From the NCBI RefSeq assembly GCF_036500625.1, contig NZ_DASYBQ010000012.1: a DNA stretch of 64,000 nucleotides; one strand, given 5' to 3'. A program made the translations under genes and the position numbers. Source of the DNA: Pseudonocardia sp. Lineage in GTDB: Bacteria; Actinomycetota; Actinomycetes; Mycobacteriales; Pseudonocardiaceae. The notes under the pieces are model-generated. The model saw only the letters and a program-made list of their open reading frames with translations. It did no database searches and was not told where the DNA came from. Shown piece after piece: positions 34,704 through 45,424 of this stretch; the first letter of the stretch is position 1, and each line of letters starts with the position of its first letter.

Positions 34704-35108
34704 GTGCACCTACTCGATCCGCAAGACCCCCACACGGTACTGAACGGCGAGCGGGTGTGTGAGGCGATCGCCCACCTGCCCGACGCCGAGACGCTGCACG
34801 ACTGGGCAACCCGGTTCGCGTTGCTGGCCGACCACACCCGGTTGGCGCTGCTGCTGTGCATCCACCACGCCCGCGAGATCTGCGTGTCCGACCTGGCCGC
34901 CGCGACCGGGGTCAAGGACAGCACGGTCTCGCAGGCACTGCGCCTGCTGCGGGCGCACGGCGTGGTCGGGACCCGCCGCGACGGTCGCGCCATCCACTAC
35001 CACCTGACCGACGACGAGCGGCTGCGCGCGCTACTGGACTGCCTGCCAGGAGCGCACGACGAGCCGGCGCACCCGGGGAGTCGCGACCACGGGCTGGTGC
35101 AGAGCTAG
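34704..35108 (+). CDS. ArsR/SmtB family transcriptional regulator
   Basis: FALLAD.TRL.LL, EICVSDLA, VSQALR.LR..G.V..RR.GR...Y.L motifs. Confidence 0.9.
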   Translation: MHLLDPQDPHTVLNGERVCEAIAHLPDAETLHDWATRFALLADHTRLALLLCIHHAREICVSDLAAATGVKDSTVSQALRLLRAHGVVGTRRDGRAIHYHLTDDERLRALLDCLPGAHDEPAHPGSRDHGLVQS

Positions 35109-35829: not shown

Positions 35830-36270
35830 TCAGCGCTGGGGACCGGCGGCCAGGGTGCAGAGCCACTCGGTGGAGGCGTCGAGTACCCGGTCGGCCCGCG
35901 CCCGGTCGGGCAACGCCGCTACGCCGCGCAGCGCGGCCGGCGGCTCCGCGCCCAGCTCGTCCAGACAGCGCTGCGCAGCGTCCCGTAGATCAATGAGGAT
36001 GGCCCGGTAGAGACGGGTGAGCGTGCCGGCGGCGGCCAGCTCGGCGCACGCCGGCTCGGGCAACGCGGCGAGCCCGGCGATCGTGCGGCGGCGAATCGCC
36101 ACAGCCTCGGCCAGGCTGGCGACCGCGCCCGGCCGGCCGGGCGCAGCGGCACAGTTGGGGCAGGTCAGCGCAATGCCCGCGACCAGCACACCGCTGGCCG
36201 ACACCACGAACCGGTGCCGGTCCTCGGTGGGACAGGCCGCGCCGCTGGGCCACGGACCCGCTGAATTCAC
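35830..36270 (-). CDS. Hypothetical protein
   Basis: 146-aa ORF with plausible helical composition and one CPxC. No family recognised. Confidence 0.4.
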   Translation of the reverse strand: MNSAGPWPSGAACPTEDRHRFVVSASGVLVAGIALTCPNCAAAPGRPGAVASLAEAVAIRRRTIAGLAALPEPACAELAAAGTLTRLYRAILIDLRDAAQRCLDELGAEPPAALRGVAALPDRARADRVLDASTEWLCTLAAGPQR

Positions 36271-36726
36271 GCTTCCTCCTCGTCACCAGATCAGCTGACT
36301 CGCCGGCTCCCAGCGGCGAAATATGGGCCCGATGGATACGCACCGGTCACCAGTTCACGCCGACGAGTGATCCACAGCATGATGTCAGCCACCCTGATCG
36401 GGCGGAGACGGTGACACGCTGAAACAACCGGTTGACGGCAGAACCACCCCCCGAGGCGCCGGCCGAGCCGTCCGGGTGAACGCCGAACGGGTTGCCGCCA
36501 CGACGGGGACGCACCGCCCCAGCCGGCCGGGCCGGCGTACGGCACCGGGTCTGCCTGCGCATTTCCCCGTCGTATTCGGTGGATTACTCCTTTCGCCGAG
36601 TTCTGTTACTCCTGGGCTGTTCGGGTGGAGCACAGAAAAGCACGAAACGAATTCCGGTCGGGCGCTGATGAGCCAAGCAGCAGCCACCCCGAGGCTGCGA
36701 CAGCCAGGAATGAGAGGGAATTTCCG

Positions 36727-36900
36727 ATGTCACACTTGAACATCTCGATCCTCAGCGGTAACGGCGGCAGGGCTCGCGGCGGCCACCGCCCCGAGCCGTC
36801 CCGCTCGCACCGCGACGATGACTGCCACCGCCCGCTCAAGCGGCACTGCGGCGACCCGTGCGGCGGCGGCCGGGGCGGCCGCGGCGGCCACTGCAAGTAG
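36727..36900 (+). CDS. 57-aa Cys/His/Gly/Arg-rich small peptide
   Basis: RBS GAGGGA 7 nt before ATG. Strong G/C at third codon positions. Sequence MSHLNISILSGNGGRARGGHRPEPSRSHRDDDCHRPLKRHCGDPCGGGRGGRGGHCK. Confidence 0.65.
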   Translation: MSHLNISILSGNGGRARGGHRPEPSRSHRDDDCHRPLKRHCGDPCGGGRGGRGGHCK

Positions 36901-36907
36901 GCGACGC

Positions 36908-36948
36908 GGCGACCGGTCCCGCCTGAGCCCCCGGGCGGGACCGGCGCC
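36908..36948 (+). terminator. Stem-loop between the small peptide gene and the ABC exporter
   Basis: ccggtcccgcc (36913-36923) / ggcgggaccgg (36934-36944), extendable with a bulge. Confidence 0.55.
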
Positions 36949-36965
36949 GACCCGAACGCTCCCCC

Positions 36966-39512
36966 ATGGCCACACATCGCAGACCAACCGGGCGGCCCGC
37001 TCCCCCATCGGCCGACGCCGAGGCCGACTCCGTCGAGACCACCACGCTGCTCGCCGTGGTCCCGCCCAAAGATTCCCTGGTCGAGACCGCCCCCTCGGCG
37101 AGCGTGCGCAGCATCTTCCGGGCTTTCTGGCCGGACACGGCAGGTTTCCGGGTGCGCCTGGTGCTGAGCCTGCTGCTGGTGGGTGTCCCGCCGCTGCTGG
37201 CGGCCGCCGGAATCTACCTGGTCAAGATTCTCATCGACGACGTGCTCACCCCGCGTGACCTGAACCGCTTCCCGGTGGTCGCCGCCGCGTTCCTCGCGGT
37301 CACCGTGGCGGAGGGCGTGCTTTCGTTCGCCGACGAGTACCTGAACGCCTGGGTCGCCGAACGGTTCGTGCTGGTGCTGCGGTCCCGGGTGTTCGACCAC
37401 TTACAGGGCCTTTCGCTGACCTTCTTCGAGAATCACCAGCTGGGCGACATCGTGAGCCGGTTGAGCGGAGACGTATCGGCGATCGAAGAAATGATGCTCT
37501 CCGGCCTCAACCAGGCGCTCACCTACCTATTCCAGATTCTGTTCTTCGGCGGCGCGCTGTTCTTCCTGGACTGGCGCCTCGCCCTCGCCGCGCTGGTTGC
37601 CGCACCCGGTTTCCTGCTGCTCGCCCGGTTCTTTTCCCGACGGATCAAGGACGCATCGCGGGAACGGCGCCGCCGGGCCGGCTCGATCACCGCGGTGGCA
37701 CAGGAGAGCCTGCACAACGTGGCGCTGGTGCAGGCCTACAACCAGCAGCGCCGGGAGTCGGCACGCTTTCACCGGGAGAACCTTGGCAGCTTCACCGCGC
37801 AGCTGCTGGCCACCAAACTGGAGGCGCTGTTCGCGCCGTTCACCGATCTGCTGGAGGCGATCGGCATGCTGGCGGTGGTGGGCATCGGCGTGCGGGAGCT
37901 GATCGCCGGCCGGATGACGCTGGGCAGCCTGCTGGTGTTCCTCGGTTACCTGACCCAGCTCTACGGCCCGATCAGCGGGGCCGGTCACCTGGCCAACTCG
38001 ATCTACTCGGCCAGCGCGGGCGCGGAGCGGATCCTGGAGGTGCTCGGCACCGAACCGGACGTGTGCGACCCGGCCGACCCGGTGCCGATGCCGAATGTCC
38101 TCGGCGCGGTGCGGGTGGACCGGCTGAGCTTCCGCTACCCGGGCAGCCCACTGCACACCCTGCGGGAGATCGCCTTCCGGGTGGACCCCGGCGAGACGGT
38201 GGCGGTGGTCGGCGCGAGCGGCGCGGGCAAGTCGACGCTGCTCAGGTTGCTGATGCGGCTGCACGACCCGTCCTCCGGCGCGGTGCGCCTCGACGGCGTG
38301 GACACCCGGTCGATGCGGGTCGCCGACCTGCGCGACAACCTTGCGGTGGTGCTGCAGGAGACGCTGGTCTTCGACGGCACTGTCGCGGAGAACATCCTGT
38401 GGGGCAGGCCGGACGCAGCGCCCTCGGACGTCGTCGCGGCCGCGAAGGCGGCGGACGCGCACCAGTTCATCCTCGGTCTGCCCGGCGGCTACCACACCCG
38501 GATCGGGCAGCGCGGCATGATGCTGTCCGGCGGGCAGCGCCAACGCATCGCGCTGGCCAGGGCGATCATCCGGGACGCGCCGGTGCTGTTGCTGGATGAG
38601 CCGACCACCGGCCTGGACGCGGCGGCCAGCCAGCGGGTCCTCGCGCCGCTGCGGCGCGCGATGCGCGGGCGCACCACGATCGTCATCTCACACAACCTGC
38701 TGACGGTGACCGACGCCGACCGGATCGTCTATCTGGAACGGGGTCGGGTCGCCGGCTACGGCACGCACCGCGAGCTGCTGGAGACCGCGCCCGGTTACGC
38801 CGAGCTCTACCGCCTGCACCATCCCGTCGTCCCCCGACCGGTGGCCGCGCCGACCACGACAACACCGACCACGGCAGCACCGGGTGTTGCCGCGCCGACG
38901 AACCCGCCACGCCCGGTACCCCGTCCCCGGCCCGGGACGGGGCCGACCGAGGCCGGGCGGACCGGGACCGGGCCGGGGAACCCGCCGACCAACCCACCGC
39001 ACCCGGTACCCCGACCACGCCCCCATCCGACTCCGGTGCCCCGGCCTCGCCCGACACCGTTCCCCCGGCCCAAGCCCCCTGCGCCGCCGGCACTTCGCCC
39101 GGCGCCCGCGCCCGGCCCGACATCCGGCCCGCGCCCAGCACCCGCCGCGTGGACGAGGCCGGCGCCCAGCCCGCTGCCCCGCCAGCGGCCGGAACCAGCG
39201 GAACAACCGGAAGCGCCGGAGCAGACTGCCCGCTACAGCGTGGAGACCCTGCCGGTCGCGCACGGCAGGTTGGTGGCAGCGCGCCGTCCGGCACCGGCGG
39301 TGCGCGGGGTAGCGGCGGTGCGCGGCGAGCCGGCGTCCGCCGCCATACCGGTGCCCCGGGGAACGCCGACGGCGCGGCAGCGCCCGGCACCGTCGTCGGT
39401 CCGGACTCCGCCGCTGAGCTGGCTCGATGACGACCCCATCGCGGAGGAGTCCGGCGAGGAGCCCACCTTCGACTGGTGGTCCACCGACCCGCCGGGCAGC
39501 CAGCACCGCTGA
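36966..39512 (+). CDS. ABC exporter (fused TMD-NBD) with long Pro/Arg/Thr-rich C-terminal tail
   Basis: Six-TM ABC membrane domain, GASGAGKS, LSGGQRQR, LLLDEPT and ISH motifs. About 230 aa of low-complexity tail follow the NBD. Confidence 0.9.
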   Translation: MATHRRPTGRPAPPSADAEADSVETTTLLAVVPPKDSLVETAPSASVRSIFRAFWPDTAGFRVRLVLSLLLVGVPPLLAAAGIYLVKILIDDVLTPRDLNRFPVVAAAFLAVTVAEGVLSFADEYLNAWVAERFVLVLRSRVFDHLQGLSLTFFENHQLGDIVSRLSGDVSAIEEMMLSGLNQALTYLFQILFFGGALFFLDWRLALAALVAAPGFLLLARFFSRRIKDASRERRRRAGSITAVAQESLHNVALVQAYNQQRRESARFHRENLGSFTAQLLATKLEALFAPFTDLLEAIGMLAVVGIGVRELIAGRMTLGSLLVFLGYLTQLYGPISGAGHLANSIYSASAGAERILEVLGTEPDVCDPADPVPMPNVLGAVRVDRLSFRYPGSPLHTLREIAFRVDPGETVAVVGASGAGKSTLLRLLMRLHDPSSGAVRLDGVDTRSMRVADLRDNLAVVLQETLVFDGTVAENILWGRPDAAPSDVVAAAKAADAHQFILGLPGGYHTRIGQRGMMLSGGQRQRIALARAIIRDAPVLLLDEPTTGLDAAASQRVLAPLRRAMRGRTTIVISHNLLTVTDADRIVYLERGRVAGYGTHRELLETAPGYAELYRLHHPVVPRPVAAPTTTTPTTAAPGVAAPTNPPRPVPRPRPGTGPTEAGRTGTGPGNPPTNPPHPVPRPRPHPTPVPRPRPTPFPRPKPPAPPALRPAPAPGPTSGPRPAPAAWTRPAPSPLPRQRPEPAEQPEAPEQTARYSVETLPVAHGRLVAARRPAPAVRGVAAVRGEPASAAIPVPRGTPTARQRPAPSSVRTPPLSWLDDDPIAEESGEEPTFDWWSTDPPGSQHR

Positions 39513-40976: not shown

Positions 40977-42113
40977 CTAGCGAGATCCTCGGATGCCCTT
41001 GGCCGCCAGCCTCGGGATCACCTCGGCGCCGAACTGCTCCAGCTCACCGACGTAGTCCACGAAGGACAGCGTCATGCCGGCCAGGCCGGCCCGGTGGTAG
41101 CGCCCGATCTCGTCGGCCACCTCGTCTGGCGTGCCGATCAGCGGGCAGGTGCCGTGTCCGGCGGCGAACCGGGGCCGGAAAGCGCCCAACATCTCCTTGG
41201 TGAACGACTGGGCGTGCAGGCCCTGTAGCCGCATCAGGTTGTCCACCGCATCCCAGTCGGCGTGCTCCTCGGCGTAGTAGTGCAGGTAGTCCAGCGCCTC
41301 GGCGCGGGTGGGCCGGCAGACCACGTGCGCCGGGCTCATCACGCCGACCTCGCGGCCGTAGTCGAGCCGCGCCTTGCTGGTGAGCCGCTCGACCAGCGCG
41401 GCGCCCTCCCGCGCATCCCCGATGATGGTGAACACGTAGTTGGCGTTGCGGGCCGCGAAGTCCCTGCCCTGCTCGCTCGACCCGGCGTTGAGCACCGGCA
41501 GCACGCCCTGCACCGGCAGGGCGTTGAGCACCGGCAGCACGCCCTGCACCGGCTTCGGCTCGGCCTCCACGTCGCGCAGGGTGAAGTAGCGCCCGGCCAG
41601 GTCGAACCGGCCCTTGCGGGTCCACAGCTCCCGGACGTGCTCCCACCATTCCTGGGCCATTGCGTAGCGGTCGTCGTGGTCGGCGGGCAGGTCAAGGCCC
41701 ATCGAGGCGTACTCCGGCTGGTTCCAGCCCGCCACGATGTTCACCCCGGCCCTGCCGCCGCCGACATGGTCCAGCGTGGCCAGCTGTTTGGCGCTGACCA
41801 CCGGGTGGTTGAACGCGGTGTGCACGGTCGCGAACACCACCACCCGACTGGTGTTGGCGAGCAACCCGGTCGCCCACGGCACCGGCTCCAGCACCGAACC
41901 GTGGAAGTTCGTGACACCGCCGTAGCCGATCCAGCGGGCGATGGGCAGTATGAAGTCGATCCCGACCCGGTCGGCCACCTCGGCCATCCGCAGGTTGTCC
42001 GCCCAGCTGGCACTCCACCGTTCCGCGATGGTGGTCACCGCAAGGCCGCCGGAACAGTTCGGCGCGAAAAGCCCCAGCTTGAAGTCCGTACCGTCAACCA
42101 GCGCGTTACCCAC
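40977..42113 (-). CDS. LLM class flavin-dependent monooxygenase
   Basis: KLGLF..N, F.LP.ARW.GYGG, T.H..F.HP...AKQ.AT.D..GGR.G.NIV.GW and NAG.S..G..FAA motifs. GGAGG RBS before GTG 42113. Confidence 0.9.
   Translation of the reverse strand: MGNALVDGTDFKLGLFAPNCSGGLAVTTIAERWSASWADNLRMAEVADRVGIDFILPIARWIGYGGVTNFHGSVLEPVPWATGLLANTSRVVVFATVHTAFNHPVVSAKQLATLDHVGGGRAGVNIVAGWNQPEYASMGLDLPADHDDRYAMAQEWWEHVRELWTRKGRFDLAGRYFTLRDVEAEPKPVQGVLPVLNALPVQGVLPVLNAGSSEQGRDFAARNANYVFTIIGDAREGAALVERLTSKARLDYGREVGVMSPAHVVCRPTRAEALDYLHYYAEEHADWDAVDNLMRLQGLHAQSFTKEMLGAFRPRFAAGHGTCPLIGTPDEVADEIGRYHRAGLAGMTLSFVDYVGELEQFGAEVIPRLAAKGIRGSR
41484..41553. repeat. 36-nt in-frame tandem duplication within the LLM gene
   Basis: 34 identical nt at 41484-41517 and 41520-41553, giving PVQGVLPVLNA twice. 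Confidence 0.9.
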
Positions 42114-42243
42114 CGCAACCTCCCCCAGGCCCAGCCGCCCACCGTACGGCCTCGGCCGGGCATACACCGGTCGATTTGCCGCCGCCAGCCGGCAGGGCGC
42201 TGGATGACGCCGGTGAACCTCGCGGCGGCCGCGGTCGGGGTGG

Positions 42244-43329
42244 TCAGCGGGCGCGGTGTGGGCGCGGTATGAGCTCCACGTCCACCGGCCTGGTCGGCTC
42301 GTTGGCGGCCCGCACCGTCTCGGTCACGATCTCGTGGTCGGGTGACAGGTGGCAGACCGGGTCGGTGCTCGCGGCGTCGCCGGTGAGCTGGAACGCCTGG
42401 CAGCGGCAGCCCCCGAAGTCGATCTCGCGGCGGTCGCAGCTCCGGCAGGGGTCCGGCATCCAGTCGGTGCCCCGGAACCGCTCGAAGACCGGGGCCCGGG
42501 TCCAGATCTGTTCCAGCGAGTCCTCCCGCACGTTCGCCCTCGGCAGCGGCAGCGCGTGCGCGGCGGGGCAGGGCAGGGTGTCGCCGTTGGGCGTCACGGT
42601 GAGCTGGCGCTTCGCCCACCCGCCCATGCAGGGCTTGGGGTACTGGCTGTAGTAGTCCGGGATGACATAGATGACGTCCATGCGTCCCTTCAACCGCTCG
42701 CGAGCGGCCCGGACCACCGTTTCCGCCTGTTCGAGCTGTTCCCTGCTGGGCAGCAACGCGTCCCGGTTGCGCCACGCCCAGCCGTAGTACTGCGTGTTGG
42801 CCAGCTCGATCCGGTCCGCCGCCAGCTCCTCGGCCCAGTCGAGGATGGGCTCGATCCGGTCGATGTTCTGCCGGTGCAGCACCACGTTCAAGGTGAACGG
42901 CCAGTCCAGCTCCTTCACCAGCCGGGCCGCCTCGATCTTGCGCTGGAACGATGGCGTGCCGGCGATCCGGTCCGAGGCGGCTGCCTCGTCGGCCTGGATG
43001 CTGATCTGGACGTGGTCGAGACCGGCCGCCTTGAGCTGCTCGGCGCGGCGCCGGGAAAGGCCGAGCGCGCTGGTGATCAGGTTGGTGTAGAGGCCGAGCT
43101 CGGTAGCGCCGGCCACGAGCTCCACGAGGTCACGGCGCAGCAGCGGCTCACCGCCGGACAGGTGAGCCTGCAGGACGCCGAGGTCCCTCGCCTCGGTGAG
43201 CACCCGGAGCCACTCCTGCGTGCTCAGCTCCCCCGAGTAGTCGGCGAGGTTGACCGGGTTGGAGCAGTACGCACAGGCCAGCGGGCAGCTGTAGGTGAGC
43301 TCGGCAAGAAGTCCGAAAGGTCTATCCAT
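42244..43329 (-). CDS. pqqE: PqqA peptide cyclase (radical SAM, SPASM)
   Basis: LLAELTY.CPLACAYCSNP (CxxxCxxC), SGGEPL, NTQYYGWA..NR, PKPCMGGW and DFGGCRCQAF motifs. Confidence 0.96.
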   Translation of the reverse strand: MDRPFGLLAELTYSCPLACAYCSNPVNLADYSGELSTQEWLRVLTEARDLGVLQAHLSGGEPLLRRDLVELVAGATELGLYTNLITSALGLSRRRAEQLKAAGLDHVQISIQADEAAASDRIAGTPSFQRKIEAARLVKELDWPFTLNVVLHRQNIDRIEPILDWAEELAADRIELANTQYYGWAWRNRDALLPSREQLEQAETVVRAARERLKGRMDVIYVIPDYYSQYPKPCMGGWAKRQLTVTPNGDTLPCPAAHALPLPRANVREDSLEQIWTRAPVFERFRGTDWMPDPCRSCDRREIDFGGCRCQAFQLTGDAASTDPVCHLSPDHEIVTETVRAANEPTRPVDVELIPRPHRAR

Positions 43330-43669
43330 CACTGATCTCCACACACCGCTTGGCGACCAGGCGGGCGAGGAACCGCCGCACCTCGCCGTCCAGCACGTAG
43401 TCCGCCACCCGGTTGTACCGGTCCCGCAGCTCGGTCACGATCTCGGTGACCGTCCGCTGCCCGTCGCAAAGGCCGATGATGTCCGCGCCGGTCGCGTTCA
43501 GCACAACGATAGTCTCCGGCCGCAACAGCACGTGCTGCTCACGCGCCCGGTCGAACGACAGCCGAACGTGCGGCGCCAGCCGGGGACGGCCCGACGAGGG
43601 CACCGGCGGACTCACCGCCGTGCCACCCGAGGGCTCCTCCACCGGACCGGAGCTACTCGACATAGGCAT
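43322..43669 (-). CDS. pqqD: PQQ biosynthesis peptide chaperone
   Basis: [13 protein letters not shown]....LN.TGA.I..LCDG.RTV (RRE domain). Located between pqqC and pqqE. Confidence 0.92.
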
Positions 43670-44339
43670 GCTCGATCGCGTCCATCATGCTCCAGAGCAC
43701 ATCGCACTTGAACGACAACGCCGCCACCGCGCGCGCCTGGTCCTCAGCCGAGCGGCAGTACTCGGTCACCACTTCGAGAGCGTGCTCGGAGTCCCGGGGG
43801 GCCTGGCGCAGCCGGGCCCGGAAGTAGGCAAGGCCGTCCCGCTCGATCCACGGGTAGCAGCGCTCGAACGCGGCGAGACGCTCGGACATCAGGTCCGGCG
43901 CGAACAGTTCGGTCAGCGAGGACGCCACCGCCTCGACCCACGGCCGGGTGCGGGTGAACGTGACGTAGGCGTCCACGGCGAACCGCACGCCCGCCGCGAC
44001 GTGCCGCCCGTCGCGCACCTCCTCGCGGGTCAACCCGGCCGCTTCACCCAGCCGCAGCCAGGCCTCGATGCCGCCCTCCCCCGGCACCGTGCCGTCGTGA
44101 TCGACGATGCGGCGGATCCACCGTCGGCGCACCTCGAGGTCTGGGCAGTTGGACAGGATCGCGGCGTCCTTGCGCGGGATGTTCTCCTGGTAGTAGAAGC
44201 GGTTGGCCACCCAGCCCTGGATCTGGCGGCGGCTCAGCTGGCCGGCGTTCATCCGGACATGGAAGGGGTGCTGGTCGTGGTAGCCGCTCGACTGCGCGCG
44301 CAGCGCCTCGACGAAACTGTCGGTCTCTGTAGTCGTCAT
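43653..44339 (-). CDS. pqqC: Pyrroloquinoline-quinone synthase
   Basis: [48 protein letters not shown] and FK.D.LW motifs. Confidence 0.96.
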
Positions 44340-45233
44340 CTAGACCTCTACCTCTAGCCCGTCCATGGCCACTTCCATACCACGCTCCTCGACAATGCGC
44401 CGCTCCGGCGCGTCATCCAGCAGGATGGGATTGGTGTTGTTGATGTGGATGTAGATCTTGCGCTCGATGGGCAGCGGTGACACCAGTTCCAGGCTGCCGC
44501 CCGGGCCGTCGATCGGCAGGTGCCCCATGTCGCGGGCGGTTTTACTTGCCAGGCCGAGCCGCACCATCTCGTCATCGCGCCAGCAGGTCCCGTCGATGAG
44601 CAGGCAGGCACAGTCGTCCATCTGGGCACGGACCTCCGCTGTGAGCTGCTGCACGCCAGGCAGGTAGACCAGCGCCCGGCCGCTGCGCTCGTCGGTCAGC
44701 CGGTATCCGACCACCCGCCCCTGCCGCGAGCCATGGCCGAAGCGGGCCCGCTTCTTCGTGGGCACGTCGAAGGCCCGGTAGGACAGCCCCGCACCGAGCG
44801 GCACGTCGGCCCCGGGCACGACCTCCTGCCATTCGACGGGGCAGTAGCGCTCCAGCGTCGGCAACAACGCCGAGCCCTCGCACAGCGTCTGGTGCGCCGA
44901 GCCGGTGGTGTGCAGCCGCAACCCCCGCCCCTCACGCAGCAGCAGCAGGCCGAGCGTGTGGTCCAGCTCGGCATCGGTGAGCAGCACCGCCTCCAGCGGC
45001 GTCGCCCTGTCGTCACGGGGATGCAGCGCGGGGAACGACTCGATCTGCGCCCGGATGTCGGGTGAGGCGTTGAAAAGGAACCATCGCCGGTAGTCGGCAC
45101 TCACCGCGATCGAGGACTGGGTGCGGGCCTGGCCGGGACGCTCGCCCGAACGGACCGCCCGGCAGGTCGGGCAGCTGCAGTTCCACTGCGGGAAGCCTCC
45201 TCCCGCCGCCGAGCCGAGCACCCGCATCCACAT
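44340..45233 (-). CDS. pqqB: PQQ biosynthesis protein B
   Basis: VLGSAAGGGFPQWNC.C..C, RTQSSIA, NASPD, LTD.E.DHTLGLL.LRE, GH and IHINNTNP motifs. Confidence 0.96.
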   Translation of the reverse strand: MWMRVLGSAAGGGFPQWNCSCPTCRAVRSGERPGQARTQSSIAVSADYRRWFLFNASPDIRAQIESFPALHPRDDRATPLEAVLLTDAELDHTLGLLLLREGRGLRLHTTGSAHQTLCEGSALLPTLERYCPVEWQEVVPGADVPLGAGLSYRAFDVPTKKRARFGHGSRQGRVVGYRLTDERSGRALVYLPGVQQLTAEVRAQMDDCACLLIDGTCWRDDEMVRLGLASKTARDMGHLPIDGPGGSLELVSPLPIERKIYIHINNTNPILLDDAPERRIVEERGMEVAMDGLEVEV

Positions 45234-45282
45234 CCTGGCGGTCCACTCCTGTCCAACCGGTGTTCGTGACCAACAGACTGGG

Positions 45283-45308
45283 GGTGCCGGGCTCTGGAGC
45301 CCGGCACC
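45283..45308. terminator. Stem-loop between pqqA and pqqB
   Basis: ggtgccgggctc / gagcccggcacc, about 20 nt downstream of the pqqA stop. Confidence 0.65.
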
Positions 45309-45328
45309 ACCTGTCGTCTACTCGTCCG

Positions 45329-45424
45329 CTAGTCGTCCATCTGGGCGACGTACATGGTCACCTCGGGTGCGACCGCGATTTCTTCGAACTCCGGGGTTTC
45401 CCACGCATGTGGCTGAGACTCCAT
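45329..45424 (-). CDS. pqqA: PQQ precursor peptide (31 aa)
   Basis: Manual translation MESQPHAWETPEFEEIAVAPEVTMYVAQMDD with W.TP and ExxxY (EVTMY). AGGAGG RBS at 45435-45440. Absent from the ORF track. Confidence 0.93.
   Translation of the reverse strand: MESQPHAWETPEFEEIAVAPEVTMYVAQMDD

What the first reader, a model, noticed from the sequence alone, without database searches (positions are those of the whole stretch)
36727..39512. Unrecognised Cys/His/RGG-rich 57-aa peptide with stem-loop and dedicated ABC exporter
Seen: strong RBS and coding-like codon usage. A short hydrophobic N-terminus (MSHLNISILSG-NGG) precedes a core with 4 Cys, 6 His, 13 Gly, 9 Arg, three RGG and three adjacent Cys/His pairs. 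An 11-bp hairpin follows, then an ABC exporter 65 nt downstream that carries an in-frame TTA (37401-37403). The same peptide-hairpin-partner layout occurs at pqqA-pqqB in this window. No modifying enzyme or C39 peptidase domain is present. Inference: an exported unmodified or disulfide/metal-stabilised peptide (bacteriocin-like, metallophore-like or spore-surface), or a RiPP precursor whose enzymes are elsewhere.
Basis: partly seen in the sequence, partly recalled or inferred. Interest (0 to 1): 0.75.

Follow-up and report, generated by a model that had tools for sequence, protein, structure and literature searches.

The report
Hypervariable micro-peptide with dedicated ABC exporter
A real 57-codon gene for a disordered Gly/Arg/His/Cys-rich peptide sits, followed by a hairpin, in front of an ABC export pump, and the same layout with very different peptide sequences recurs in more than ten actinobacterial genera, pointing to an unnamed family of mini-peptides that are either exported by the pump or control it.

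Summary
The small ORF (36727-36900, +) is a real gene. Its GC3 is 0.93, against 0.62 just upstream. It has a Shine-Dalgarno site. Its closest relative differs by 9 synonymous and 4 non-synonymous codon changes. It is the only ORF of this composition and GC3 in the 64 kb window. The hairpin, the 65-nt gap, the ABC half-transporter, the in-frame TTA and the pqqA parallel are all present. The TTA is not conserved and is not unusual here.

In all 32 actinobacterial loci with readable upstream DNA, the orthologous exporter is preceded by a 32-68-aa ORF and a strong hairpin. These ORFs share a short hydrophobic N-terminus and a low-complexity core that is almost free of Ala, Leu, Val and Ile. The core differs by lineage. 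No modifying enzyme, peptidase, immunity gene or regulator is co-conserved. No Pfam or NCBIfam family matches the peptides, and database relatives are all called 'hypothetical protein'.

Best reading (about 0.4): an unmodified, disordered peptide exported by its own ABCB-type pump, with the hairpin setting a high peptide-to-pump ratio. Main rival (about 0.3): a cis-acting leader peptide that controls pump expression. Function is untested.

The parts
36583..36726 (+). Conserved non-coding leader upstream of the small ORF (Pseudonocardia clade only). It contains an invariant 20-mer CTCCTGGGCTGTTCGGGTGG (36609-36628), GAAACGAATTC (36644-36654), GCGCTGATGAG (36663-36673), a UCCUUUC stretch (36588-36594) that can pair with the SD, and the SD GAGAGGGA (36712-36719).
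   Evidence: Alignments of 9 and 17 loci. RNAalifold pairs the CUUUU stretch with the SD. No Rfam family matches. The leader is absent in other genera, which have their own upstream sequences.
36680..36698 (+). Small RNA hairpin in the leader: GCAGCC-ACCCCGA-GGCUGC, with a conserved C-rich loop.
   Evidence: 95.8% of cells are paired, 3 of 6 pairs show compensatory double changes, 0 of 500 shuffles reach the covariation score, and slid controls drop to 32-49% paired.
36727..36900 (+). Small ORF of 57 aa. It has a hydrophobic N-terminus (MSHLNISILSG) and a disordered Gly/Arg/His/Asp/Cys core. In the clade, D30, D31, C33, R35, R39 and C56 are invariant.
   Evidence: GC3 0.93. There are 9 synonymous and 4 non-synonymous codon changes against L104. 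Gene callers predict it in six metagenome contigs. AlphaFold2 gives pLDDT 53 and no secondary structure.
36900..36960 (+). GC-rich stem-loop between the small ORF and the ABC gene (core stem 36913-36923 with 36934-36944). It has no U-tract.
   Evidence: Fold of -45 kcal/mol, z = -3.5. No canonical terminator by the consensus scan. A comparable hairpin follows the small ORF in every locus examined, starting 1-47 nt after the stop.
36966..39512 (+). ABCB-type (type IV fold) half-transporter of 848 aa. TMD aa 77-335 (about 37194-37970), NBD aa 399-548 (about 38160-38609), Pro/Arg/Ala-rich C-terminal tail aa 619-848 (38820-39509). There is no SD before the ATG.
   Evidence: Pfam. NCBIfam finds it MsbA-related but below every family cut-off. 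The closest solved bacterial structures are Sav1866, a 'multidrug resistance ABC transporter' half-transporter (5mkk, 6raf) and MsbA. The tail occurs only in the Pseudonocardia clade.

Best explanation
The small ORF and the ABC gene form a two-gene cassette: a peptide and its own exporter.

Shown:
- The small ORF is translated from a good Shine-Dalgarno site into a 57-aa peptide predicted to be disordered.
- The peptide has a short hydrophobic N-terminus and a highly charged Gly/Arg/His/Asp/Cys core.

Inferred:
- The strong stem-loop right after the stop ends or stabilises most transcripts. Only read-through transcripts reach the SD-less ABC gene, so much more peptide than pump is made. This is the arrangement seen at pqqA-pqqB in this same window and, from general knowledge, at lantibiotic and bacteriocin structural genes.
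- The homodimeric ABCB-type half-transporter exports the peptide without leader cleavage or modification. It probably recognises the N-terminus or generic features, and thereby also keeps the cytoplasm free of the peptide.
- Outside the cell the peptide acts through its bulk chemistry as a polycation, aromatic 'sticker' or metal-binding chain. It could be antimicrobial-like, or bind metals or surface polyanions. In the Pseudonocardia clade two invariant Cys plus His/Asp could form a disulfide or a metal site.
For: 1. The pairing small ORF, hairpin, ABC is conserved in all 32 actinobacterial loci with upstream sequence. These span Pseudonocardia, Nonomuraea, Amycolatopsis, Streptomyces, Gandjariella, Modestobacter, Janibacter, Actinoallomurus, Saccharopolyspora and Rubrobacteraceae, with exporter identity down to 36%.
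2. Nothing else is co-conserved across genera.
3. The whole peptide is under purifying selection. Nonomuraea pairs show 6-13 synonymous against 0-5 non-synonymous differences (dN/dS 0-0.08). The window against L104 shows 9 synonymous and 4 non-synonymous changes.
4. The design is bipartite. Residues 2-10 are rich in F/L/I/S/K, with the pattern M-[SGAT]-[LSF]-[FGL]-[KD]-h-h. Cores are 20% G, 23% R, 13% D, 8% H, 6% W and 5% C, but only 1.5% A, 1.2% L, 0.2% V and 0% I.
5. There is a strong SD on the small ORF, none on the ABC gene, and a stable hairpin between them. The hairpin lies after the stop at a variable distance of 1-47 nt. In the BmrB attenuator the terminator lies inside the ORF (PMC4191407).
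6. The same layout occurs at pqqA-pqqB in the window.
7. The exporter is of the ABCB fold, the fold of known peptide exporters (my own knowledge).
Against: - No secretion, processing or activity data exist.
- There is no C39 peptidase, no conserved double-glycine site and no immunity gene.
- The cassette is syntenic within Pseudonocardia, and the exporter tree follows taxonomy rather than peptide class. That looks more like a housekeeping function than an accessory weapon.
- Some cores are acidic or Ser/Gly/Thr-rich (Janibacter, L011, L012), so one shared extracellular activity is hard to name.
- Exporter TM-segment charge does not track peptide charge (rho = -0.06). This was a crude test.
- The AT-rich codons of the 'hydrophobic N-terminus' could reflect selection for an unstructured initiation region rather than a recognition signal (inference).
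- The hairpin has no U-tract.
Confidence: 0.4

Rival explanations
1. Cis-regulatory leader peptide. What matters is the act of translating the small ORF, or its nascent chain. Ribosome speed or stalling on hard-to-translate runs (Asp runs, Arg runs, Trp, Gly, Pro) would decide whether the downstream hairpin forms, and so whether transcription or translation continues into the ABC gene. This is how BmrB controls BmrCD in Bacillus subtilis and how MgtL-type leaders work.
For: - The architecture (small ORF, hairpin, ABC exporter) is the same as bmrB-bmrCD, where a small upstream ORF serves as a regulatory leader peptide (PMC4191407).
- The hairpin often starts within 1-20 nt of the stop, so a terminating ribosome could prevent it from forming.
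- Cores are enriched in residues that, from general knowledge, slow peptide-bond formation or destabilise ribosomes.
- The peptide sequence diverges far faster than the exporter. L010 and L032 have exporter TMDs 95% identical but small ORFs only 56% identical. This resembles the taxon-specific arrest peptides described in PMC7897499.
- The ABC gene has no SD of its own.
- The 5' arm of the hairpin can form alternative pairings with the ORF (window: -23.5 against -28.9 kcal/mol for the hairpin).
Against: - The hairpin lies after the stop, not inside the ORF as in bmrB. Its distance from the stop varies from 1 to 47 nt, which does not fit a mechanism that depends on ribosome geometry.
- There is no U-tract in the window.
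- Alternative pairings are expected by chance in DNA of about 70% G+C, and none is demonstrably conserved.
- Selection acts along the whole 32-68-aa peptide, and composition is biased throughout, not only at a C-terminal stalling motif.
- Most leader peptides are much shorter (my own knowledge).
Confidence: 0.3
2. Cytoplasmic small protein. It would act as a metal buffer like the His-rich protein Hpn, as a nucleic-acid or polyanion binder, or as an accessory regulator of the pump. The ABC transporter would export something else, for example a metal complex, or be modulated by the peptide.
For: - Pseudonocardia-clade members are rich in His, Asp and Cys, with invariant DDDC and a C-terminal Cys. 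Some have nine His.
- RGG/RG motifs bind nucleic acids (my own knowledge).
- An ArsR-family regulator lies 1.6 kb upstream and is syntenic in the clade.
- Small proteins that modulate transporters are known, for example MttS/MttQ (listed).
Against: - Metal-binding residues are not a general feature. Nonomuraea, Amycolatopsis, Janibacter and the Pro-rich members do not fit.
- There is no transmembrane helix, as is typical of transporter-bound small subunits.
- No predicted fold.
- The ArsR gene is conserved only through clade synteny, not with the cassette across genera.
Confidence: 0.12
3. RiPP precursor whose modifying enzymes are encoded elsewhere in the genome. The ABC transporter would export the mature product.
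For: - The bipartite leader-plus-core look and the precursor-hairpin-partner layout match pqqA in the same window.
- Cys, Trp and His are frequent modification sites (my own knowledge).
Against: - No modifying enzyme, RiPP recognition element or protease is co-conserved in any of the 38 loci compared, nor in the window neighbourhood.
- Cores are repetitive and vary in length, which is atypical for enzyme-templated cores.
- The N-terminal region of 6-10 residues is very short for a RiPP leader.
Confidence: 0.1

Closest known systems
Leaderless bacteriocins and phenol-soluble modulins with dedicated ABC exporters (aureocin A53/lacticin Q type, including the Actinomycetota members of PMC11580447; PSM-Pmt from my own knowledge)
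   Same: A small gene-encoded peptide is made without a cleavable leader and without modification. It is paired with an ABC transporter that exports it and protects the producer.
   Different: - Those peptides are amphipathic and helical, with hydrophobic cores. These are Gly/Arg/Asp/His/Trp low-complexity chains with almost no Ala, Leu, Val or Ile and no predicted structure.
- There is no sequence or family match.
- This cassette appears vertically inherited and syntenic.
BmrB leader peptide with BmrCD of Bacillus subtilis (ribosome-mediated transcriptional attenuation, PMC4191407)
   Same: A small upstream ORF sits in front of an ABCB-type exporter, with a strong stem-loop before the exporter gene.
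   Different: [quoted passage not shown]
- Here the hairpin follows the stop at variable distance and lacks a U-tract.
- Here a single half-transporter gene follows, not two.
Precursor-hairpin-partner operons such as pqqA-pqqB (present in this window)
   Same: A highly expressed small structural gene is followed by a stable hairpin, then the partner gene.
   Different: pqqA is followed by modifying enzymes (PqqB-E). This small ORF is followed only by an exporter.
Eukaryotic composition-biased host-defence peptides: Gly/His-rich shepherins, Trp/Arg-rich indolicidin and tritrpticin, Pro/Arg-rich apidaecin and oncocin, Gly/Tyr-rich nematode NLPs (resemblance from my own knowledge, not tested)
   Same: The cores found here fall into the same composition classes: (GRGGH)n, WGWG/WRRRWWW, PxPxP/R, and GYGRG repeats.
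   Different: - There is no homology.
- These are bacterial and ribosomally made, and have no signal peptide.
- Activity is untested.
- Some members are acidic or Ser/Gly/Thr-rich.
Hpn-type His-rich and MymT-type Cys-rich metal-binding mini-proteins (my own knowledge)
   Same: Small size, with His, Cys, Gly and Asp richness in the Pseudonocardia clade.
   Different: - Only two Cys are conserved.
- Metal-binding residues are absent in many other genera.
- The linkage to an exporter is not a feature of Hpn or MymT.

Membership tests
ABC exporter, ABCB / type IV fold half-transporter | N-terminal six-helix ABC_membrane domain fused to one ABC_tran nucleotide-binding domain | tested here: met
   PF00664, E = 1.5e-45 (aa 77-335), and PF00005, E = 1.2e-32 (aa 399-548). 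The closest solved bacterial half-transporters are Sav1866, 5mkk/6raf and MsbA.
MsbA, CydDC, HlyB or other named ABC equivalogs (NCBIfam) | Score above the curated family cut-off | tested here: not met
   The best match is TIGR02204 MsbA_rel at 447.8 bits, against a cut-off of 780.4. All other families are also below cut-off.
Class II bacteriocin or peptidase-containing ABC transporter system | C39 peptidase domain on the ABC transporter | tested here: not met
   No Peptidase_C39 among the Pfam hits. TIGR01193 and TIGR03796 are far below cut-off.
Class II bacteriocin or peptidase-containing ABC transporter system | Conserved double-glycine leader with a hydrophobic -4/-7/-12 pattern | tested here: not met
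   Gly runs follow the N-terminus in the Pseudonocardia clade, but their register is not conserved. They are absent in other genera.
RiPP precursor | Co-located modifying enzyme, RiPP recognition element or protease | tested here: not met
   Only the ABC gene is shared across genera in 38 loci compared. The window neighbours are an ArsR-type regulator, a histidine phosphatase, a CBS protein, a luciferase-like monooxygenase and unknowns. Enzymes encoded elsewhere in the genome cannot be excluded.
Leaderless bacteriocins (aureocin A53 / lacticin Q type) | Sequence or fold similarity: amphipathic helical bundle | tested here: not met
   No Pfam or NCBIfam match. AlphaFold2 gives no secondary structure, pLDDT 53. 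The core has almost no aliphatic residues.
Ribosome-dependent transcription attenuator (BmrB or trpL type) | Intrinsic terminator (stem plus U-tract) overlapping or close to the leader ORF | tested here: inconclusive
   A strong stem is present. There is no U-tract in the window. The stem lies after the stop, at 1-47 nt across loci.
Ribosome-dependent transcription attenuator (BmrB or trpL type) | Conserved mutually exclusive anti-terminator pairing | tested here: inconclusive
   Alternative duplexes exist (window: -23.5 against -28.9 kcal/mol). They are expected in DNA of about 70% G+C, and no conserved partner was found.
Translation-arrest 'monitoring substrates' (SecM, MifM, VemP, ApdA) | Upstream of a Sec or YidC component, with an N-terminal signal or transmembrane segment | tested here: not met
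   The downstream gene is an ABC exporter. The hydrophobic stretch is only 6-10 residues.
Known structured RNA family (for the leader) | Rfam covariance-model match | tested here: not met
   No relevant hit at E up to 10 over 36200-37100.
Metallothionein (MymT) or Hpn-like metal-binding mini-protein | Multiple conserved CxC/CxxC or poly-His clusters; demonstrated metal binding | tested here: inconclusive
   Only C33 and C56 are invariant. His-rich runs occur in some clade members but not in others or in other genera. Metal binding cannot be tested with these tools.

The most novel reading that the evidence does not exclude
Actinobacteria carry a widespread, unannotated class of gene-encoded, unmodified, intrinsically disordered low-complexity peptides, each exported by its own ABCB half-transporter. 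Their cores are Arg/Gly plus Trp, Tyr, His, Asp, Cys or Pro. The cores diversify rapidly and converge repeatedly on the same composition classes as eukaryotic host-defence peptides. This would make them a new bacterial family of secreted polycationic or 'sticker' peptides, antimicrobial or binding metals or the cell surface. In Pseudonocardia they would be controlled by a novel structured 5' leader RNA.
Probability: 0.3. Interest if true: 0.85.

Novelty: new variant of a known kind. Interest (0 to 1): 0.66.

Why it matters
If the peptides are exported, this is a large, hidden reservoir of genetically encoded, modification-free peptides in the phylum that supplies most antibiotics. Genome-mining tools miss them because no enzyme, peptidase or known precursor family marks them.

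The peptides could be synthesised directly and tested. The minimal peptide-plus-pump cassette would also be a simple model for how ABCB exporters handle highly charged, disordered substrates.

If the ORF is instead a leader peptide, it would be a phylum-wide nascent-chain sensor controlling an exporter of unknown substrate, which is also undescribed.

In either case the small gene deserves annotation. The database relatives found are all labelled 'hypothetical protein'.

Tried and rejected
- Direct homology search with the 57-aa peptide found only itself. A clade profile found nine hits, all 'hypothetical protein'.
- Pfam and NCBIfam returned nothing for the window peptide and 12 further representative small ORFs.
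- Rfam over 36200-37100 gave no credible match.
- The consensus promoter and terminator scan found nothing. A SigR/SigH-like GGAAT-N17-GTT seen by eye in some loci is not conserved, so I dropped it.
- The TTA (bldA-type) idea is rejected. The codon is not conserved, and TTA occurs in 7 of 49 window ORFs.
- The anti-terminator search gave energies that do not discriminate in GC-rich sequence.
- Charge co-evolution between the exporter TM segments and the peptide showed no correlation (rho = -0.06). The test was crude.
- Clustering exporters by peptide class failed: the exporter tree follows taxonomy, not class.
- Non-actinobacterial exporter homologues (33-42% identity) have no comparable small ORF.
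- AlphaFold2 on the peptide gave no structure.
- RNAalifold on the whole leader gave weak support (about -11 kcal/mol). Only the 36680-36698 hairpin shows covariation.
- Five literature searches found no description of this cassette. The library is incomplete, so this is not proof of novelty.
- The opposite-strand ORFs 36606-37400 and 36730-37008 are rejected as genes (GC3 0.75-0.76).
Full report
**1. What is at the coordinates**

The window is DNA of 69.6% G+C. Its closest relatives are Pseudonocardia: the exporter is 76% identical to that of P. spinosispora.

The small ORF runs from ATG 36727 to TAG 36898-36900. It encodes MSHLNISILSGNGGRARGGHRPEPSRSHRDDDCHRPLKRHCGDPCGGGRGGRGGHCK.

- GC at codon positions 1/2/3 is 0.67/0.62/0.93, matching the long genes of the window (GC3 0.89-0.92).
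- The 102 nt upstream in the same frame have GC3 0.62. Translation therefore starts at the ATG, which follows GAGAGGGA by 7 nt.
- Opposite-strand ORFs over the region have GC3 of about 0.75 and are discounted.
- Across the whole 64 kb, only three ORFs have a core that is at least 60% G/R/D/H/C/W/Y/N and at most 15% A/L/V/I/P/T. Only this one also has GC3 above 0.9.
- Gene callers predict the identical 57-aa protein on six metagenome contigs.

The stem-loop after the stop has its core at 36913-36923 and 36934-36944. Its fold is -45 kcal/mol over 76 nt, z = -3.5. It has no U-tract.

The ABC gene (36966-39512) starts 65 nt after the stop and has no recognisable SD. It encodes ABC_membrane, ABC_tran and a roughly 230-aa Pro-rich tail, with no C39 peptidase.

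The TTA at 37401 is in frame. All 11 orthologues compared use another codon there, and 7 of 49 window ORFs contain a TTA.

**2.

I fetched 80 loci encoding relatives of the exporter. In all 32 actinobacterial loci with readable upstream DNA there is a small ORF on the same strand just upstream.

- It is 32-68 aa long and starts at an ATG preceded by an SD-like site.
- In most loci its GC3 is well above that of its surroundings.
- A GC-rich hairpin of 10-17 bp follows the stop, starting 1-47 nt downstream.

Examples of the peptides:

| Lineage | Small-ORF product |
|---|---|
| Pseudonocardia | MSGLLNISDVLNFGGGHGGHGRGHGGHGGRGHGGDCDSRPRRRHHDNDDDCRRTKRHGGGRGGHCD |
| Nonomuraea | MTLGKLFPAHRSDWWGWGRRGCGRRRWWGGCGGGCGGGWRRRWWW |
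| Amycolatopsis | MGSFKPVHRDRYDSRRNDHDRSRRYNRNRRYGR |
| Modestobacter | MTYTKKSEKRPEWGGWWGGWGGHGGWWGGHGGWWGHKGW |
| Streptomyces thermovulgaris | MAFFDALFPTVNRGRDDDDYGYGRHGRGGWGDGYGRGGHGRGGHGRGGHGRGGHGRGGRGGHGGRGGR |
| Streptomyces (exporter only 36% identical) | MIFGLFGSRRGSFGGNHGGHGYGRGYGRGDYSYGRRGYGRGDYGYGRRGYGSYCR |
| Saccharopolyspora | MGFPIPFPGNGHPRPHFPERPQQPQPAPAPRR |
| Janibacter | a Ser/Gly/Thr-rich peptide |

Non-actinobacterial homologues of the exporter have nothing comparable. The finding therefore passes the test that could have refuted it.

**3. Are these real genes?**

- In Nonomuraea, small-ORF pairs differ by 6-13 synonymous and 0-5 non-synonymous substitutions (dN/dS 0-0.08). 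The adjacent exporter gives 0.10-0.15.
- In Pseudonocardia the small ORF evolves faster (dN/dS 0.3-0.7) and has many indels.
- The window's own closest relative, metagenome locus L104, differs by 9 synonymous and 4 non-synonymous codon changes.
- Within the Pseudonocardia clade M1, D30, D31, C33, R35, R39 and C56 are invariant. The motif is DDDC[HR]R.[LT]KR plus a Cys one to three residues from the C-terminus.

**4. Common design**

Residues 2-10 are rich in F, L, I, S and K, with a recurring M-[SGAT]-[LSF]-[FGL]-[KD]-h-h pattern. The rest is 20% Gly, 23% Arg, 13% Asp, 8% His, 6% Trp and 5% Cys. It contains only 1.5% Ala, 1.2% Leu, 0.2% Val and no Ile. From general knowledge, that is extreme for organisms whose proteomes are rich in Ala, Leu and Val.

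One caveat is my inference. The N-terminal residues use AT-rich codons, so part of this pattern may serve an unstructured initiation region rather than the peptide.

AlphaFold2, run with a clade alignment, gives pLDDT 53 and no secondary structure.

**5. Context**

- Clustering all high-GC3 ORFs from 38 loci shows that only the exporter is shared across genera. The flanks are conserved only through synteny within Pseudonocardia.
- Window neighbours are an ArsR-type regulator, a histidine phosphatase, two unknowns, a CBS protein, a luciferase-like monooxygenase and the pqq operon. There is no RiPP enzyme, peptidase or immunity gene.
- The exporter is a generic ABCB/MsbA-like half-transporter, below every NCBIfam cut-off. 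It is closest to Sav1866, the 5mkk/6raf half-transporter and MsbA among bacterial structures.
- Its Pro-rich tail is specific to the clade.
- The exporter tree follows taxonomy, not peptide class. Trp-rich cores occur in three separate exporter lineages, and exporters with 95% identical TMDs can have small ORFs only 56% identical.
- Net TM-segment charge does not track peptide charge.

**6. Mechanism**

Two readings fit the anatomy.

(a) Cargo plus exporter. This is supported by:
- the exclusive, phylum-wide pairing;
- selection along the whole peptide;
- the bipartite design;
- the strong SD, hairpin and SD-less partner, an arrangement also seen at pqqA in this window;
- the hairpin lying outside the ORF at a variable distance.

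(b) Cis-acting leader peptide, as for BmrB-BmrCD (PMC4191407). This is supported by:
- the identical gene order;
- the closeness of many hairpins to the stop;
- hard-to-translate residue runs;
- fast, lineage-specific divergence.

However, in bmrB the terminator and anti-terminator lie within the coding region. Here they do not, no U-tract is present, and no conserved alternative pairing could be shown.

I put (a) at about 0.4 and (b) at about 0.3. A cytoplasmic metal or polyanion binder or pump modulator is at about 0.12, and a RiPP precursor with distant enzymes at about 0.1. Export, activity and regulation are all inferred, not shown.

**7. Comparison with known systems**

In function, the cassette most resembles leaderless bacteriocin or PSM-type peptide-exporter pairs. 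In layout it resembles precursor-hairpin-partner operons. It is not a member of any of those families: there is no C39, no double-glycine leader, no modifying enzyme and no family match.

The core compositions parallel Gly/His-, Trp/Arg-, Pro/Arg- and Gly/Tyr-rich eukaryotic host-defence peptides. That resemblance comes from my own knowledge and was not tested.

No paper describing this cassette was found in five searches. Database relatives are labelled 'hypothetical protein'.

**8. The leader**

In the Pseudonocardia clade a roughly 145-nt non-coding leader (36583-36726) is strongly conserved. It includes an invariant 20-mer.

- A hairpin at 36680-36698 is supported by compensatory changes in 3 of 6 pairs. 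95.8% of cells are paired and 0 of 500 shuffles reach the covariation score. The region is therefore transcribed and structured.
- A UCCUUUC element can pair with the SD of the small ORF. Only one-sided changes support that helix.
- No Rfam family matches.
- Other genera have different upstream regions. By eye, Nonomuraea has a plausible promoter about 40-45 nt upstream. The leader is therefore a clade-specific regulatory layer, not part of the core cassette.

**9. Verdict**

The cassette is a real, conserved and unnamed gene pair whose mode of action remains open between exported cargo and cis-regulator.

Noticed in passing
window 36583-36726 (hairpin 36680-36698; invariant 20-mer 36609-36628): A clade-specific conserved 5' leader lies upstream of the small ORF. 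It has one hairpin supported by covariation and a possible anti-SD element, and it matches no Rfam family. It is a candidate new cis-regulatory RNA or operator region.
   Followed up: partly
window about 36468-36480: A second conserved block, CCGTCCGGGTGA, lies about 140 nt upstream of the similar TTCGGGTGGA in the leader. The two may be repeated binding sites or part of a longer transcript.
   Followed up: no
window 38820-39509: The ABC exporter carries a 200-440-aa Pro/Arg/Ala-rich C-terminal tail, only in the Pseudonocardia clade. The tail ends in a conserved PLRWS.[DE][DE]PF-like motif. Amycolatopsis and Saccharopolyspora have shorter tails with GQLF.P[DE].
   Followed up: partly
window 36945-36985: The exporter start (ATGGCCACACATCGCAG) is conserved in the clade but has no Shine-Dalgarno sequence. 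How it is translated is unclear.
   Followed up: no
window 42244-45424 (-): A complete pqqABCDE operon is present: PqqA (31 aa), a metallo-beta-lactamase-fold PqqB, PqqC, PqqD and the radical-SAM/SPASM enzyme PqqE. A stable hairpin lies between pqqA and pqqB.
   Followed up: yes
window 40977-42167 (-): The luciferase-like monooxygenase gene contains a perfect 11-aa tandem duplication (PVQGVLPVLNA twice) in its product.
   Followed up: no
window 34704-35108 (+): An ArsR/SmtB-type winged-helix regulator lies 1.6 kb upstream and is syntenic with the cassette within Pseudonocardia. This could matter if the His/Cys/Asp-rich peptide has a metal role.
   Followed up: no
L022 2464-2670; L037 and L039; L034 and L035: The Streptomyces thermovulgaris small ORF is a (GRGGH)n repeat peptide and sits just after a histidine-kinase gene. 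Gandjariella and a Rubrobacteraceae MAG each carry two paralogous small-ORF-plus-exporter cassettes.
   Followed up: partly
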